A DNA stretch of 64,000 nt from Haliotis cracherodii. Taxonomy: Eukaryota. The notes beneath the pieces were generated by a model that was not told the DNA's origin, did no database searches, and worked only from the letters and a program-made list of their open reading frames with translations. The position numbers and the translations under genes were made by a program. How positions within the stretch are numbered: position 1 is the first letter of the stretch; each line of letters opens with the position of its first letter. Location of the stretch: NCBI RefSeq assembly GCF_022045235.1, contig NW_027266267.1, positions 29,698,001 to 29,762,000 on the forward strand, written 5' to 3'. Shown piece after piece: positions 51,979-60,992 of the stretch.

Positions 51979-53205
51979 TCAACAGTCTTTCCCAGTTAGA
52001 TCCACATAGGCACTAACTCCTGACAGTGCCGGGGGTTCATAATCACAGTTACACTTTCCGAGGTTGGGTGTGATCCTGTCATAATGATTGCCGTGAGTGT
52101 GACACAGGGTGATGAAACATGGATGGTAGGATGTGTCTCTGGTGTAGGTGAATCGGGGCTTGAACAGCATCCAGTTGTAAGCATCACCAGAATGATCCGG
52201 AGACAAGACATAAATGTCTCGCTGAAGGAGTGTAGCTGCAGCATATATTTCAGCTGATGAAGCCCAAGTTGATGTCTTTCTCATTTCATTAATATGATCA
52301 AGCATCTGTGTGCCTGCATCCAGAAATTGTTCGAACTCTCGAGGAAACTTTTCCACCAAGTCCACCACAGCTTGACGCACATCTTCATGGAATTCTTCGG
52401 AGTCATAAATTTCTTTGCTAAGAGCTCGGAAAAAGCAGTTGCCATCCCCACGAATGTAATCAATCTGACGTCCGTCTGATGCAAGTTGGGACTTAAGGTA
52501 CCGATACACTGGGTAGCTTGGTGTCGGAGTTACCCTGTTAATTGAATCTTGCTTTCCTTGGGGTTCTGTATGTTTTGTCAGAACGCTGTCACTATGGGAA
52601 GATGCTGGACTTGATTCAGCAAAGAAGGTTCTATTATAACTCTCAGTTATATACACATCTGATGCTGAATCGCATGCCAAGTCCTCATACATACACAAAT
52701 CAATCAATTCATCTGACAGACGTGAATCTGATGGATCAGGCTGCTGGGAGGTGCCTTGAATGGCGTCTGAAAATCTATTTCTCGCTGATGATTGAGCGCC
52801 TTGAGAAACTGAAAAAGTTGATTCAGAATTGTCTTGACTAGATTTGCTTTTTCCATGGCTGGTGCTTTGGCTTGGAGAACTGGCTTGAGCTCTTCGACGG
52901 TTCCGTGACCGACTATTTACTCCATTATTATTGGTGTTTTGACTAGGAATATCGTGGTAATCCTCAGTCAGATCTATCAGTGGTTGTGGGCTGTATGGCG
53001 CGTCTCTCCCCTCAACCTGTATGGGAATAACAAACTCTCGAGACCTGCCACGCCTTCTGGTGACCTCTGGAGATCCAGTAGCAGGAATTCTTTCAGGGAA
53101 AAATCCACTTCCGTGTTCACTCAGTACATGGTGATGATGAGGTTCAACACGAAACATGTCACTGAACGGAATATCCTTAAAAACAGAACAGTCATGAATC
53201 TTCAT
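51979..53205 (-). CDS. Intronless OTU-domain deubiquitinase (OTUD-like cysteine protease), 408 aa
   Basis: First ATG at 53205 (the track starts at a TTG). OTU motifs IRGDGNCFFRALS, WASSAEIYAAA and HTHGNHYD; disordered Ser-rich N-terminal half. Confidence 0.9.
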   Translation of the reverse strand: MKIHDCSVFKDIPFSDMFRVEPHHHHVLSEHGSGFFPERIPATGSPEVTRRRGRSREFVIPIQVEGRDAPYSPQPLIDLTEDYHDIPSQNTNNNGVNSRSRNRRRAQASSPSQSTSHGKSKSSQDNSESTFSVSQGAQSSARNRFSDAIQGTSQQPDPSDSRLSDELIDLCMYEDLACDSASDVYITESYNRTFFAESSPASSHSDSVLTKHTEPQGKQDSINRVTPTPSYPVYRYLKSQLASDGRQIDYIRGDGNCFFRALSKEIYDSEEFHEDVRQAVVDLVEKFPREFEQFLDAGTQMLDHINEMRKTSTWASSAEIYAAATLLQRDIYVLSPDHSGDAYNWMLFKPRFTYTRDTSYHPCFITLCHTHGNHYDRITPNLGKCNCDYEPPALSGVSAYVDLTGKDC

Positions 53206-53544
53206 TTCTTTGAACAAGACAATAACTTGTCACAATATTTACACTATCTGCTGGTAGTTCTTAGTAATAATAACCTGGCAACACTCACACGAAAGGACAC
53301 TTTTAAAATGGCGACAAGGAGACTGAACAGTCACTGTGAGTTGTGTTGTTTCTATCGGTAGATCCTTGTCCTATCGATCGAATCCGGAAATACTAACAGA
53401 AAGTCTCTCTCTATGAACCCAGGTCTATCCACATCGAGGTTTCACTTCAAACTATGTTCCCCTTCTAACTCCTAAAATATTTAACGTGGGAATATATTCT
53501 TAGTCACTTGTAAACATAGCATGAATAATTCACACAAGTGGTTG

Positions 53545-55385: not shown

Positions 55386-57020
55386 CCACCCAGCCGTACA
55401 CAACCCACACCCTGCACAACCCACACCTAGCCGTACACAACCCACACCCTGTACCACCCACACCCAGCCGTAAACAACCCACACCCTGCACCACCTACAC
55501 CCTGCCGTACACAACCGACACCCAGTGCCACCTACACCCAGCCGCACACAACCCACACCCTGCACCACCTACACCCAGCCGTACACAACCCACACCCTGC
55601 ACCACCTACACCCAGCCGTACACAACCCACACCCAGTGCCACCTACACCCAGCCGCACACAACCCACACCCTGCACCACCTACACCCAGCCGTACACAAC
55701 CCACACCCTGCACCACCTACACCCAGCCGTACACAACCCACACCCAGTGCCATCCACACCTAGCCGTACACAACCCACACCCTGCACCACCTACACCCAG
55801 CCGTACACAACCCACACCCAGTACCACCCACACCCAGCCGTACACAACCCACACCCTGTACCACCCACACCCAGCCGCACACAACTGACACCCTGCACCA
55901 CCTACACCCAGCCGTACACAACCCACACCCTGTACCACCTACACCCAGCGGTACACAACCCACACACTGCACCACCCATACCCAGCGGTACAAAACCCAC
56001 ACCCTGCACCACCCATACCCAGCGGTACACAACCCACACCCAGTACCACCTACACCCAGCCGAACACAACCCACACCCTGCACCACCCATACCCAGCGGT
56101 ACACAACCCACACCCTGCACCACCCACACCCAGCCGTACACAACCCACACCCTGCACCACCCATACCCAGCGGTACACAACCCACACCCTGCACCACCTA
56201 CACCCAGCCGAACACAACCCACACCCTGCACCACCCATACCCAGCGGTACACAACCCACACCCTGTACCACCTACACCCAGCCGAACACAACCCACACCC
56301 TGCACCACCCATACCCAGCGGTACACAACCCACACCCTGAACCACCTACACCCAGCTGTACACAACCGACACCCTGTACCACCTACACCCAGCTGTACAC
56401 AACTGACACCCTGTACCACCTACACCCAGCCGTACCCAGCCGTACACAACTGACACCCTGTACCACCCACACCCAGCTGTACACAACCCACACCCTGTAC
56501 CACCCAGCCATACAAAACCCACACCCTGCACCACCCACACCCAGCCGTACACAACTGACACCCTGTACCACCCACACCCAGCCGCACACAACTGACACCC
56601 TGTACCACCCAGCCGCACTCAACTGACACCCTGTACCACCCATACCCAGCCGCACTCAACTGACACCCTGTACCACCCACACCCAGCCGTACACAACCCA
56701 CACCCTGCACCACCCAGCCGCACACAACTGACACCCTGTACCACCCATACCCAGCCCTACACAACCCACACCCTTTACCACCAAGCCGCACACAACCGAC
56801 ACCCTGTACCACCCACACCCTTCCGTACACAACCCAACACCCTGTACCACCCACACCAGCCGTACACAACCAACACCCTGTACCACCCAGCCATACACAA
56901 CCCACACCCTGTAACACCCACACCCAGCCGTACACAACTAACACCCTGTACCAACCACACCCAGCCGCACTCAACTGACACCCTGTACCACCCATACCCA
57001 GCCCTGCACAACCCACACCC
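55386..57020. repeat. 37-bp C/A-rich minisatellite (~44 copies), cut by the Gypsy LTR
   Basis: Unit ACACAACCCACACCCTGYACCACCYACACCCAGCCGT. Confidence 0.96.
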
Positions 57021-58787
57021 TGTAGTGGCCCGGACCCGAACTTCTGATAAACCTCGAAGTCTGGATGTAACGGAGAGTCAAAACACTTCTTTTCAATGAA
57101 TAATTAGTTTTTATTCATGTGGGTATAACAATGCCTTATATGGACAATACAATTCTTCCAAATAAGTAGATCCCTCTCAGCTTTAAGGTTTATTTGTAAG
57201 GACCAGTGTCAGGGCAAAATAATTATTGCCTGTAACTATAATGGTATTTTACTGCTATAAATATATATAGATGATTTCTTCATCTGAATAACTTTACAGT
57301 TACTAAGAAAGCAATTTGTGTCTGTGTTCAAAAATGCAGTCTATTTATAGAAATGATTACATGAGGACAAGGGGAACTTTTGGGCTGAATTATCTGCCCT
57401 TTGATTGAAACTGACCTTTAGACTGCCAAAGTCAGAATGACCCAGAATGGATCTCATCGTATTTATAGGTGTGAGAAAATGGTCACATGTCTGTTATTGA
57501 CCAATCAAATTACGAGAAATTACGTCTCTTTACGTCCTTATTCCTTTGAGGGATCTACTTTCACAATGTAAAATCACTGAAATAAAGAGGAAGGCAAACC
57601 ATCTCAGGAGGTAATTTGGTATAAAAATGAGTATTTATACCAATCAATGAATTCTGTCTAATTGATTCACTAATTGCCTTCCAATATCACAAGATAAACA
57701 ATTACGTCCTGCTACGTCGAAGCTACGTCCTTGCTGCCTGCCGAGAGGACGTAATAACAACAAGTAACATCGACTGGGAATTATGATGGACAATTCAAAG
57801 AGGAAGATTACAAATGTCAGGAGGCAATTGGAATTTATCTAATGCATAAGACGTTTAATAACACAAATTGGCCACTGGTATGCTTTGACAGAAGCACTGG
57901 ATGTCATATTTATGAGAAACATGTTCATAAACATGTGACGCTAAATACTGCGTATGAATACATCAGCGAAGATTACATAGTTCCTGATGTCAGAATTAAC
58001 AGTAACTTTAATACACGTCTTGACATATCATCAAATACGATTCTGGGTTCCTCTGGACATAGTTCATTAGATTAAATAAACTTTATAATGCAAAATGCTA
58101 AGCATTAGCCAAATTCAGTTACTTCATCGCGACCTAGGCTAGCTGTCACAAAGTTAAAATGGCGGGCGTCGGCGAAACACGTAGCTCAGCCCTGGTCACA
58201 AATTCACACGATTATGGATAAATATCAAGCTGCCAAGTGATTGTGATCTGTTTGTTGAAGAACAAAAGTATGATTAATCTGTATCTGATGGTTAATTTGC
58301 GTAACTGTGTGCTTAGAACGATGAATTCTTCAAAAGTTACGGTCAATGCAAAACTCTTGAAACAAGTAAACAAGATCGTTTTGACAGGCACGTTGTTGAC
58401 ATCGATGCTTATGAGGTACTGGCACATCCTAAACAATATGCGTAACATGATGGCATGGACATATGATTATTTTTACGAGATAACAGTGTGCCATGAAGCT
58501 CTACAAAAGCATGCTATGATCCTCTGATAGATTTCTTACCAAAACGGGATTCAAAACATTGAATTACGTGAAAACGAGGTTGGCAAAAATATACTGATAT
58601 ATACCTGCAAAACTTATTACAGTTTACAGGATAATTATGATATAATTCGTGCACTGTCATACAACCATCAAAAATACAGCAGGGAAATATTTAGGAAATA
58701 TTTCTAATTTTTACAAGCTGTCATAACTTTCATATTTTATAATAAAGACACATTAATATTTATATATTCTTCGTGATGGCCATCACA
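57021..58787 (-). repeat. 3' LTR (~1.77 kb) of the Gypsy element
   Basis: TG...CA termini with an imperfect 10-bp inverted repeat (TGTGATGGCC / TGTAGTGGCC); PPT at about 58788-58803; AATAAA near the distal end (about 57110 and 57190). The partner LTR is outside the window. Confidence 0.8.
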
Positions 58788-58823
58788 TCATCCCCCTCTT
58801 CAAAGATCAGGTCCCCTGATCTG

Positions 58824-60320
58824 CTAGTCCACTTCCAGGCGAAGACCGATCCTTGCTGCATCGATAGAGTTGATGATCCTGTCTGTTTCCGTATTCCTAT
58901 GGCGTTGGGCGGCTTGATGCATGAGGATTATGGCCCTGGCAGTCTGGCCGTTTATCTTGCCCAAGGAGATGTCAACCAAGGTCCGGTAATCGTAAAGACG
59001 GGCCTTCCTTGATGGTGAGTGGTTCTCTGTATGCAGTAGGGTACCAGGGAGGGCAAGCATATTCCATCTGTCATGCAAGTAGCTCCTTTCAATTCGAGGG
59101 ACTCGTCCTTGGAGGCCCTCCTCCAGGGTCATGGCAGCAAATTCCCACTGGAGGAGTCTCTCATCTGCACTGAGGGTCTCCCAGCTCCTAGGAGGCCAGG
59201 TGATGCTCCTTGCACCAGCAGAGAGGCGGATCTGATGGTGTGTCCAGTCCCTTCTGGCTGGGGGAAGCAGTGGCATGCAACCTGTTGTCAAGATCTTCTT
59301 GGCATCCCTCATGGTGTCCACTTCCCTTGGCCTTGGGGGAGAGCTGGGCCTTTGATGGTATCTTTTCTGTTCCTCTCTTCTTGGGATCTTTGATGCGGAA
59401 TCCTTATGGGGAGACATGTTGGAGTTACTCGATCTTTTCTTGGGCCTGGGGGAAGGTTCCCTTGATGAAAAAGGGGATGTCCAATGTGTAACGGAGTCGA
59501 TCAGGTTCATCTCTATCCCCAGAAGTGATGCGAAGGTGGCTTTCCTTGTCTCAAGTTGAGGTCCCTCCATTTTCTGCCCTGATCCACTTGGCCTGGAGTT
59601 GGGTTCGGCCCTGCCAAGAGTCCTCATCCGCCTTGTGAGGTTGTCGAATGACTTCGGACTCTGCATGGCTTCTTCTGAAATGCCCGCCTCGTACACAAAC
59701 CCACCCCCAGGCGTATAGAACAGGACAGTAGCACCATTCCTCTGGAGGAGGATGTCTTTAATCTCTAGTTGAGTAGAGGCGCCACACTTGCTTTCTGAAG
59801 GGTCGTATTCTGGTGGTGTGTTAACTTCCGGTTCAAGACTTATGATTCCATCTGTAAATATGGACAGAGCATCATCTTGTACATCCTGCACCTCCACTGG
59901 TAGGGTCTTTGTGACCTTTTTAATCGTCTGCCATCCCTCCTCCCATTCTTCCTCTGTTCTTGGCATGCTGCCCTGTGTTGAGACCCAAAGAAGGACCATT
60001 TCCCTTGTCTTCGCTGAAAGTGCCGCATTCCAACCTGGAGCTGGTACCACACTCACATACGATTCTGGATTAAGTGAAAACCATGTGGCGTTGCTTTCTG
60101 ATGTAAAGTCTGCATCAAGTTCCTGCAGCTGTAGCTTGTGCCTGGCATCACAGTGCCTCTTCCACTCTGAAACTCTTGAAAAGGACTGGAATGAAGGACA
60201 CAGGATACAGGCTACCTTGAGTTTACGATGTGGTGCTGCTGCCAAATGATTCTTCAATTCTTTCTTCGTTGCAAAAGAATTGTCACATGTTCCCAGTCCA
60301 CAGACATACTTGTGAGCCAT
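58824..60320 (-). CDS. Gypsy-encoded extra ORF (498 aa) with two N-terminal C2H2-type zinc fingers; function unknown
   Basis: Intact ORF from the ATG at 60320, ending about 20 nt before the PPT; CGLGTC..F..L..HLAAAPH and CILC...F....W..HCDARH; preceded by a tttgtgttacag acceptor at 60341. Confidence 0.8.
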   Translation of the reverse strand: MAHKYVCGLGTCDNSFATKKELKNHLAAAPHRKLKVACILCPSFQSFSRVSEWKRHCDARHKLQLQELDADFTSESNATWFSLNPESYVSVVPAPGWNAALSAKTREMVLLWVSTQGSMPRTEEEWEEGWQTIKKVTKTLPVEVQDVQDDALSIFTDGIISLEPEVNTPPEYDPSESKCGASTQLEIKDILLQRNGATVLFYTPGGGFVYEAGISEEAMQSPKSFDNLTRRMRTLGRAEPNSRPSGSGQKMEGPQLETRKATFASLLGIEMNLIDSVTHWTSPFSSREPSPRPKKRSSNSNMSPHKDSASKIPRREEQKRYHQRPSSPPRPREVDTMRDAKKILTTGCMPLLPPARRDWTHHQIRLSAGARSITWPPRSWETLSADERLLQWEFAAMTLEEGLQGRVPRIERSYLHDRWNMLALPGTLLHTENHSPSRKARLYDYRTLVDISLGKINGQTARAIILMHQAAQRHRNTETDRIINSIDAARIGLRLEVD

Positions 60321-60992
60321 CTTCAATGATTATGTGTATTCTGTAACACAAATGTTTTCTTTTAGACTCGCCTAAACATCCAACAATGCAGCATATTATT
60401 CCAACTTAAATGCCATCATGTGTAATTATACTATTGATTATGTCTTAAGGTCAATACTCTACAACCCTGACACTGGTTTGCATGGATCTCTGATAAATAT
60501 CTTAGCCTCACAGGACAATCATAGCTTCTATCTTTACACGGGTCACCTCCATCGGTTCTGTGTACTCCGTTCTCACACGATGCCCAGATCAAATGCCACA
60601 GAAAGAATGTAAACAACATCAAGTCAGCAGGTTCCAGGGTGATCAGGCCTAGTCTTACTGCGTTACATGATGGATCCATCATCGTTCGCTGCAGCACTTC
60701 CATCAACATGTTCTTTCTGTTTGCAGATATCTGGCGCTGTATGAAGACACAAGTTGAGGTTCCACCCAACAAAGCTTCAAGTCCTTGTACAGCTCCCTAA
60801 GATTTACCAGAGCAACCCATGCAAGCAATAGCTTCAGCACTGAAGCTCAAGATCCTTCTTCGGGACATAGATTATCCCATCCAACTATTTACATCATAAT
60901 AAAACTCCAACATTGTTAACAATAAACACAAACTTCTGAAGTTCAACTTTTCTTTAAGATATTGTTAAGACAGGTTCTCCAGGCCTAATCTT

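What the first reader, a model, noticed from the sequence alone, without database searches (positions are those of the whole stretch)
58824..60345. Gypsy retrotransposon with an intact non-env zinc-finger gene in the env slot
Seen: between the integrase and the PPT/3' LTR lies a sense 498-aa ORF with no stops, whereas pol has two nonsense codons and altered catalytic motifs (FIDD, DMHAS). It has two C2H2-like fingers, a Trp-rich segment, a basic NLS-like stretch (PRPKKR) and a compact C-terminal region (GCMPLLPPARRDW...WPPRSW...WNMLALPGT). I see no signal peptide or transmembrane anchor. A tttgtgttacag acceptor about 20 nt upstream of the ATG suggests a spliced subgenomic RNA. Established: errantivirus env occupies this position and is expressed by splicing; extra ORFs of most other Gypsy clades are uncharacterised. 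Inference: a nuclear accessory factor (LTR trans-activator, anti-silencing protein or targeting factor) of a little-described Gypsy lineage.
Basis: partly seen in the sequence, partly recalled or inferred. Interest (0 to 1): 0.8.

Follow-up and report, generated by a model that had tools for sequence, protein, structure and literature searches.

The report
Zinc-finger accessory gene of mollusc retrotransposons
A group of jumping genes, with named relatives only in shellfish, carries a conserved extra gene where retroviruses keep their envelope gene; its protein has two zinc fingers and a predicted domain matching no solved structure, and it likely binds the element's own promoter to keep it switched on.

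Summary
The ORF is real: 498 codons, sense, between integrase and the PPT/3' LTR of a young full-length Ty3/Gypsy element. It is an old family gene, not a chance frame. Two divergent intact elements show the same gag-pol-ORF3 layout, the RT tree groups them (95/92), pN/pS among copies is 0.22-0.34, and 552 library clusters match; all 8 species-named look-ups are bivalves. A splice acceptor lies 1-20 nt before the ATG in four families, but no junction was seen. It is not env. AlphaFold gives three domains: a tandem C2H2 pair with a helical bundle, a small beta/alpha domain, and a C-terminal domain with no solved-structure match (best Z 3.4). Best mechanism (0.45): a nuclear DNA-binding activator or anti-silencer of the cognate LTR. 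Rivals: Rev/CERV-like RNA export, integration tether. Other Gypsy lineages of this genome carry other zinc-finger or zinc-finger-TatD genes in this slot. Function is untested.

The parts
58824..60320 (-). ORF3, 498 aa, third gene of the element
   Evidence: family; selection
60138..60302 (-). tandem C2H2 zinc fingers (C7, C12, H25, H31; C38, C41, H56, H61)
   Evidence: ligands kept in 95-100% of rows with a residue; Pfam zf-C2H2 only below cut-off, E 0.005-0.009
59901..60137 (-). Trp-rich helical bundle following the fingers (residues 62-140)
   Evidence: pLDDT 88-97; P85, Y88, G129, W130 at 91-99%
59466..59780 (-). middle domain, three strands, two long helices, one strand (residues 181-285)
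   Evidence: detected in 57 of 79 long relatives
58827..59324 (-). C-terminal domain (residues 333-498), most conserved part, no solved-structure match
   Evidence: pLDDT 96.2, pTM 0.89; best Z 3.4 of 48,161 chains, best Foldseek E 0.6
60341..60352 (-). predicted splice acceptor; exon would start at 60340, 20 nt before the ATG
   Evidence: same signal 1-4 nt before the ATG in three other families; junction not observed
60321..60992 (-). non-coding spacer between pol and ORF3
   Evidence: 675 nt with the pol stop; 758 and 630 nt in L026, L027
60993..64000 (-). pol (RT, RNase H, integrase), two in-frame stops; continues outside the window
58788..58801 (-). polypurine tract
57021..58787 (-). 3' LTR, TG...CA, 7 mismatches and one 17-nt gap to the 5' LTR
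57521..57753 (.). cluster of six GACGTA sites in U3, upstream of the TATA box; candidate ORF3 target
   Evidence: 6 observed, 0.43 expected, 0 of 300 shuffles; positions
57456..57469 (-). TATA box, 14 of 14 bases shared with the LTR of a second ORF3 family
57410..57418 (-). donor-like site in R (the 5' LTR copy would be the one used)
   Evidence: only site with 7 or more of 9 consensus matches between TATA and gag ATG; not seen in the second family
57017..57020 (-). 4-bp target-site duplication; the element sits in a tandem-repeat array

Best explanation
ORF3 is a conserved third gene of a Gypsy retrotransposon clade, likely made from a spliced RNA, whose zinc-finger protein likely binds short repeated sites in the element's own LTR to keep it transcribed. 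Shown: element-borne, clade-wide, under purifying selection, soluble, with a conserved acceptor at the ATG. Predicted: three folded domains on flexible linkers. Inferred: the 5' LTR transcript is spliced from a donor just after the start site to the acceptor at 60340; the protein enters the nucleus; the finger pair reads a short motif repeated in U3; the middle and C-terminal domains recruit or block host chromatin or transcription factors. This would be a trans-activator or VANC-like anti-silencer; the data cannot separate those two.
For: Linkage: pol lies upstream in the same sense at 7 of 12 loci with an ORF3 match, 3 more have only the element's LTR or spacer; 4 of 4 integrase places of this family have ORF3 or a remnant behind them. 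Clade: careful RT tree 95/92 for 3 of 23 rows; quick integrase tree 96 for 4 of 44 rows. Selection: pN/pS 0.22, 0.34, 0.34, 0.32 (Fisher p 5e-4 to 5e-9), against pol 0.44, 0.40. Acceptor: 4 of 4 families, and R or Q before the start Met in 8 of 10 upstream-extended gene models, p 3e-6. DNA binding: finger 2 keeps R/K at helix position -1 in 89% and D/E at +3 in 95% of rows, both base-contact positions in classical fingers (recalled code); finger region median charge +5; nearest structural matches of the finger pair are DNA-bound fingers (Kaiso 5vmz, prob 0.90, E 0.73, rmsd 3.3 over 60 columns). Target: GGAC[AG] is enriched in U3 of both ORF3 families of this genome (7 vs 2.5, 3 of 200 shuffles; 17 vs 3.0, 0 of 200), while 1 of 20 control stretches reached 2 of 100. 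LTR CpG o/e 0.76 against 0.32 in gag-pol.
Against: The motif was chosen after seeing both LTRs, and the 3' region of L027 shows no enrichment (3 vs 2.6, 238 of 500; its LTR limits are unknown). Host factors could explain the U3 repeats equally well. Only two fingers, a non-canonical hydrophobic linker, variable position +6 and variable finger-1 positions; such fingers can be structural or bind RNA or protein. The structural match to DNA-bound fingers is not significant. No conserved NLS (19 of 92). The donor candidate is absent from the second family. 2 of 12 loci show no element context (a tandem array of fragments; a 1.8-kb contig). Nei-Gojobori counts fall below 1 under transition bias: a decayed copy gave 0.58-0.62 for gag and pol.
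Confidence: 0.45

Rival explanations
1. Rev/CERV-like post-transcriptional regulator: the product of the spliced RNA binds the unspliced genomic RNA and licenses its nuclear export or stability.
For: The predicted splice would make nearly all of the genomic RNA an intron. CERV of Cer1 is 517 aa, spliced, with three predicted domains on flexible linkers and a Cys-rich loop, and is needed for export (PMC10309623, sections 9 and 15 read). ORF3 has a similar size and three-domain plan. The C domain is basic (median +4) with conserved Arg residues.
Against: No conserved NES-like motif (best bin 38 of 106 rows). CERV's finger is described as C4-type and one domain as G-protein-like; no such fold was listed for ORF3. 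No direct sequence comparison with CERV was run.
Confidence: 0.2
2. Integration tether or nuclear-import factor: the fingers bind host DNA or chromatin and another domain binds integrase or Gag.
For: Modular build with a DNA-binding-type end and a conserved domain of unknown fold; base-contact residues conserved across divergent families would fit a fixed host target.
Against: A separately spliced gene need not be packaged (inference). Insertion-site bias was not analysed.
Confidence: 0.15
3. Host-directed effector or enzyme, for example a suppressor of piRNA or innate sensing, with the C domain as the active part.
For: The C domain is the best conserved part, with near-invariant R357, W359, W375, P376, P377 and conserved E393, D417, N420, R441. 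It occurs without the fingers, fused to kinase-like domains, in two scallop gene models. Other Gypsy lineages of this genome carry a TatD nuclease in this slot, and rotifer elements carry DEDDy and GDSL enzymes there (PMC5408684, passages).
Against: No enzyme fold or family matched. Most invariant residues are W, P, G, L, which points to structure.
Confidence: 0.13
4. An env-like or membrane protein for cell-to-cell spread.
For: Position and predicted splicing match env (PMC12992720, passages).
Against: No signal peptide or membrane segment by hydropathy (0.84 vs 2.84 for env); 10 of 106 relatives reach 1.6; no Baculo_F hit, while the control L091 scores 5e-19.
Confidence: 0.02
5. A captured host-gene fragment or chance ORF without function for the element.
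For: Bivalve homologs are annotated as host genes. ORF3 is broken in the other copies of this genome.
Against: Open in two divergent intact elements; pN/pS 0.22-0.34; annotated homologs are multi-copy and often fragmentary (clusters of 16 and 15 members); two gene models join it to integrase or protease.
Confidence: 0.02

Closest known systems
Errantivirus env (ORF3 of insect Ty3/Gypsy elements)
   Same: Sense third ORF behind pol; env is translated from a spliced subgenomic RNA (PMC12992720, passages).
   Different: No signal peptide, membrane anchor or F-protein match here; zinc fingers instead.
CERV of C. elegans Cer1
   Same: Accessory protein of an animal LTR retrotransposon, about 500 aa, three predicted domains on linkers, spliced (PMC10309623, abstract and sections 9, 15).
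   Different: CERV shares exons with gag and has a C4-like loop and a G-protein-like domain; ORF3 is a separate gene behind pol with tandem C2H2 fingers. Homology not shown.
VANC anti-silencing proteins of Arabidopsis VANDAL transposons
   Same: Element-encoded; targets are short motifs in tandem repeats that differ between related elements (PMC5735166, abstract only). The two ORF3 families here have related but different U3 repeats.
   Different: Plant elements, DNA transposons (recalled); binding and demethylation are shown for VANC and untested here; no sequence link tested.
Non-env ORF3s of bdelloid rotifer LTR elements and plant additional ORFs
   Same: Family-specific non-env genes between pol and the 3' LTR (PMC5408684, passages; PMC7264820, part 1 of 3).
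   Different: Those are DEDDy, GDSL, coiled-coil or membrane proteins; 'zinc' does not occur in the rotifer paper's main text.
Foamy virus Tas/Bel1 (recalled, no call)
   Same: DNA-binding trans-activator encoded next to the 3' LTR.
   Different: True retrovirus with env; internal promoter; no C2H2 fingers as recalled; not compared here.

Membership tests
Ty3/Gypsy LTR retrotransposon | gag, then PR-RT-RH-IN order | tested here: met
Ty3/Gypsy LTR retrotransposon | paired TG...CA LTRs, TSD, PBS, PPT | tested here: met
   LTRs 98.6%, 4-bp TSD, PBS matching tRNA-Leu(CAG) genes of this genome, PPT
Named mollusc Gypsy clades (MolGy1-16, Mag, CsRn1, Gmr1) | RT/RNase H placement with reference elements | not testable with these tools
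   no reference sequences found in the supplements searched
Errantivirus env | signal peptide and membrane anchor | tested here: not met
   hydropathy scan with env control
Errantivirus env | F-type or gB-type glycoprotein homology | tested here: inconclusive
   no Pfam hit (control hits); no such fold listed with significance, which does not exclude it
Errantivirus env | spliced subgenomic RNA | tested here: inconclusive
   acceptor conserved; junction not observed
Classical C2H2 zinc fingers | C-x2-4-C...H-x3-5-H ligands and beta-beta-alpha fold | tested here: met
   Pfam scores below cut-off
Classical C2H2 DNA-binding arrays | canonical TGEKP-type linker (recalled) | tested here: not met
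   linker is variable-R-L-x-V-I type
Classical C2H2 DNA-binding arrays | sequence-specific DNA binding | not testable with these tools
   needs EMSA or DAP-seq
CERV/Rev-type export factors | leucine-rich export signal | tested here: inconclusive
   loose pattern in at most 38 of 106 rows at one place
CERV/Rev-type export factors | homology to CERV | not tested
VANC anti-silencers | repeated short target motifs in the element's non-coding DNA | tested here: inconclusive
   2 of 3 families enriched, motif chosen post hoc

The most novel reading that the evidence does not exclude
Mollusc Gypsy elements use the env slot as an exchangeable cassette for spliced nuclear regulators. This clade encodes a sequence-specific zinc-finger activator or anti-silencer of its own LTR, a Tas- or VANC-like system in an animal LTR retrotransposon, acting through a domain of new fold that scallops have also fused to kinase-like genes. 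Other lineages in the same genome carry short tandem fingers or finger-plus-TatD nucleases in the same slot.
Probability: 0.3. Interest if true: 0.85.

Novelty: new variant of a known kind. Interest (0 to 1): 0.62.

Why it matters
Few accessory proteins of animal LTR retrotransposons have a known job (env, CERV). This is a large conserved family (552 clusters at 50% identity) with a confident model, an unmatched C-terminal fold, a predicted splice and candidate DNA targets, so the question of how animal retrotransposons counter silencing becomes testable. It also shows that multi-copy 'C2H2-type domain-containing' bivalve gene models of this family are likely retrotransposon genes. None of the ten paper searches returned a description of this family; subscription papers and Repbase entries were not searchable and may already annotate the ORF.

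Tried and rejected
RNA evidence: no RNA holder listed (runs only guessed to be RNA, all contigs). In 8 of 24 listed runs laid on the element, 0 of 8 showed a joint at the acceptor; contigs of 6 of the 8 ran through it unspliced; one X2 contig ends exactly at the acceptor AG. The predicted first exon of about 25 nt is shorter than the 31-letter words, so these data are uninformative. Depth steps inside integrase in X3 and X4 (one study) were not taken as an internal promoter. Fold searches: full-length model, no Foldseek match at E <= 0.001 in PDB or BFVD, best Z 4.2; C domain best Z 3.4; the N-terminal bundle and middle domain were not folded alone. HMG-box and WPP resemblances (recalled) were not among the listed hits. 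ESM Atlas: only generic zinc-finger leads under 0.9, nothing for the C domain. PDB sequence search: only C2H2 and low-complexity hits. No relatives in viral or prokaryote contigs. A profile search by words returned only two known proteins. ORF3 versus the finger-TatD type: no similarity (prob 0.4); versus the short-finger type: fingers only (prob 76.6, 55 columns). The careful integrase tree did not finish (quick tree used). No earlier scan findings. Clade naming failed; 3 supplements of PMC8556966 were not searched (one later) and those of PMC6238403 were only listed. Paper searches gave no listing that describes this family; TatD + gypsy + LTR retrotransposon gave 0 papers.

Full report
Observation. 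The frame 60320-58824 on the minus strand gives 498 residues without a stop. Pfam places RT, RNase H and integrase upstream in the same sense and gives ORF3 only sub-threshold C2H2 hits. With the neighbouring stretch the whole element is 10.6 kb: 5' LTR, primer site, gag, pol, 675-nt spacer, ORF3, PPT, 3' LTR, 4-bp target duplication. The LTRs differ by 7 substitutions and one gap, so the insertion is young. The primer site matches tRNA-Leu(CAG) genes of the genome. This copy is dead: gag has a frameshift, pol two stops and a private RNase H change. FIDD is common to the three full-length copies.

The contrast 'intact ORF3, broken pol' carries no weight. ORF3 is frameshifted in the four other copies aligned over 300 or more codons, and three random lesions would spare it with P 0.44. 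The case rests on comparison instead.

Linkage. Twelve loci matched ORF3 and could be read: nine in this genome, counting the C31 array once, and three metagenome contigs. Seven have pol upstream in the same sense, three have only the element's LTR or spacer, two show no context. L026 and L027 are intact gag-pol-ORF3 elements with RT 77% and 63% and ORF3 domains 24-52% identical to the window. The C12 family has ORF3 about 550 nt behind an integrase end, then a PPT and LTR. Conversely all 4 integrase places of the window's family have ORF3 or a remnant behind them. ORF3 bearers form one branch: RT 95/92 (3 of 23 rows, careful tree), integrase 96 (4 of 44 rows, quick tree), integrase C-terminus 91 with the long-branched C12 copy. 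Of 40 other integrase loci, which I chose from 150 listed, 0 matched the ORF3 profile in six frames.

Family and selection. A profile of five sequences matched 552 clusters at E <= 0.001, 139 at 1e-30. Of 24 proteins looked up, 8 carried a species name, all bivalves; two clusters hold 16 and 15 members, many fragmentary. The host of the window was not determined; mollusc is an inference. Among 79 hits of 430 aa or more, 51 have all three domains and 16 have N and C (profiles built from the same set). pN/pS against four copies is 0.22-0.34 (p 5e-4 to 5e-9), as low as gag (0.24) and below pol (0.40-0.44); a decayed copy gave 0.58-0.62 for gag and pol, a rough neutral yardstick.

Expression signal. 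A pyrimidine-rich YAG lies 20, 4, 1 and 2 nt before the ATG in the four families; the exact hexamer of the window recurs in L026 and L027, each with chance about 0.006. In 8 of 10 database models extended upstream, the residue before the start Met is R or Q, as an AG would give (p 3e-6). One copy (C34) has lost the AG. One strong donor-like site lies 54 nt after the TATA box, upstream of the primer site; the second family lacks a comparable one. Splicing is therefore likely but unobserved; see Tried and rejected for the contig data.

Protein. The model (106 sequences, mean pLDDT 85.8, pTM 0.49) has three confident domains on disordered linkers. All eight zinc ligands are 95-100% conserved. The linker around PRPKKR varies from 29 to 406 residues and a basic cluster there is found in 19 of 92 rows. 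There is no membrane segment or signal peptide by hydropathy. The C domain alone models at pLDDT 96.2, pTM 0.89, and its best match among 48,161 chains is Z 3.4, rmsd 3.0 over 55 residues, below the 7-8 typical of models without a clear match. That suggests but does not prove a new fold.

Mechanism. I commit to an LTR-binding regulator at 0.45. Finger 2 keeps R/K at -1 (89%) and D/E at +3 (95%) while overall identity is about 25%. The U3 of the window holds six GACGTA sites (0.43 expected), that of the C12 family 17 GGACA-type sites (3.0 expected), and the two otherwise unalignable LTRs share a 14-base TATA box. Against: the shared motif was picked post hoc, L027's 3' region lacks it, two fingers with an odd linker give little specificity, and host factors could use the repeats. 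Export of unspliced RNA as by CERV (0.2), integration tethering (0.15) and a host-directed effector (0.13) stay open. Env and a passive captured gene are rejected.

Context. The slot is used widely in this genome: of the 40 other loci, 9 carry a short tandem-finger ORF, 12 a finger-like-plus-TatD ORF, 2 an env, and 17 none that I saw (most typed by eye, five TatD and one env confirmed by Pfam). The types fall on separate branches, and only the finger pair resembles ORF3.

Literature seen. PMC10309623: abstract, sections 9 and 15. PMC7264820: part 1 of 3. PMC5735166: abstract. PMC13524379, PMC5408684, PMC12992720, PMC6238403, PMC8556966, PMC8220671, PMC12440569, PMC6431247: passages around search terms. 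Non-env third ORFs are a known kind; no listing or passage described this family or a TatD-bearing Gypsy (ten searches, listed under Tried and rejected). Repbase, subscription journals and several supplements were out of reach. The zinc-finger recognition code, the canonical linker and Tas are recalled.

Verdict. Real, conserved, apparently undescribed accessory gene: a new variant of a known kind. Interest 0.62, held back because the function is inferred.

Noticed in passing
L059-L065, L069-L071, L073, L076 (G000): A Gypsy clade (integrase support 100) whose third ORF, 600-720 aa where unbroken, has an Arg/Ser-rich region, a zinc-finger-like motif and a TatD DNase domain. Pfam TatD E 1e-23 to 4e-41 in 5 of 5 elements tested; the other 7 were typed by eye. 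No paper held TatD + gypsy + LTR retrotransposon. Worth its own study.
   Followed up: partly
L055-L058, L072, L067, L074, L075, L078 and an element in L019/L020: Two further Gypsy lineages with a short (170-300 aa) tandem-C2H2 third ORF sharing an N-x-x-F-x-x-P motif; acceptor-like signal 0-8 nt before the ATG in 3 of 4 checked.
   Followed up: partly
L091:5371-7812, L094: Gypsy elements with F-type env in the same genome (Baculo_F 5e-19 for L091).
   Followed up: partly
P0156, P0157: Pecten maximus gene models with several isoforms that fuse a kinase-like domain to the ORF3 C domain: possible host co-option, or chimeric models.
   Followed up: no
L023-L025 (G000:C31:1453584-1464703): At least five tandem fragments of the ORF3 C domain (68-77% identity) with no pol or LTR seen.
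   Followed up: no
G000-wide: The LTR matches at 48 places (40 of 76 candidates scored) against 4 integrase places, so most copies are likely solo LTRs. The second family's LTR matches at 71 places.
   Followed up: partly
L052:3832-7103: Contigs of runs X6 and X10 join an LTR end to a point inside pol, and X5 stops there: an internally deleted or nested variant that keeps integrase and ORF3.
   Followed up: no
window 51979-53229 (-): 416-aa open frame with an OTU deubiquitinase domain (Pfam 8e-13), apparently one long exon.
   Followed up: no
window about 55400-57020 and about 39150 onward: The element sits in a tandem-repeat array of about 37 bp present on both sides; a 29-bp array of about 136 overlapping matches lies near 39-40 kb.
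   Followed up: no
G000:C23:74407194-74511757: Array of 75 matches to a tRNA-Leu 3' pattern; the one locus scanned holds tRNA-Leu(CAG) between tRNA-Cys genes.
   Followed up: no
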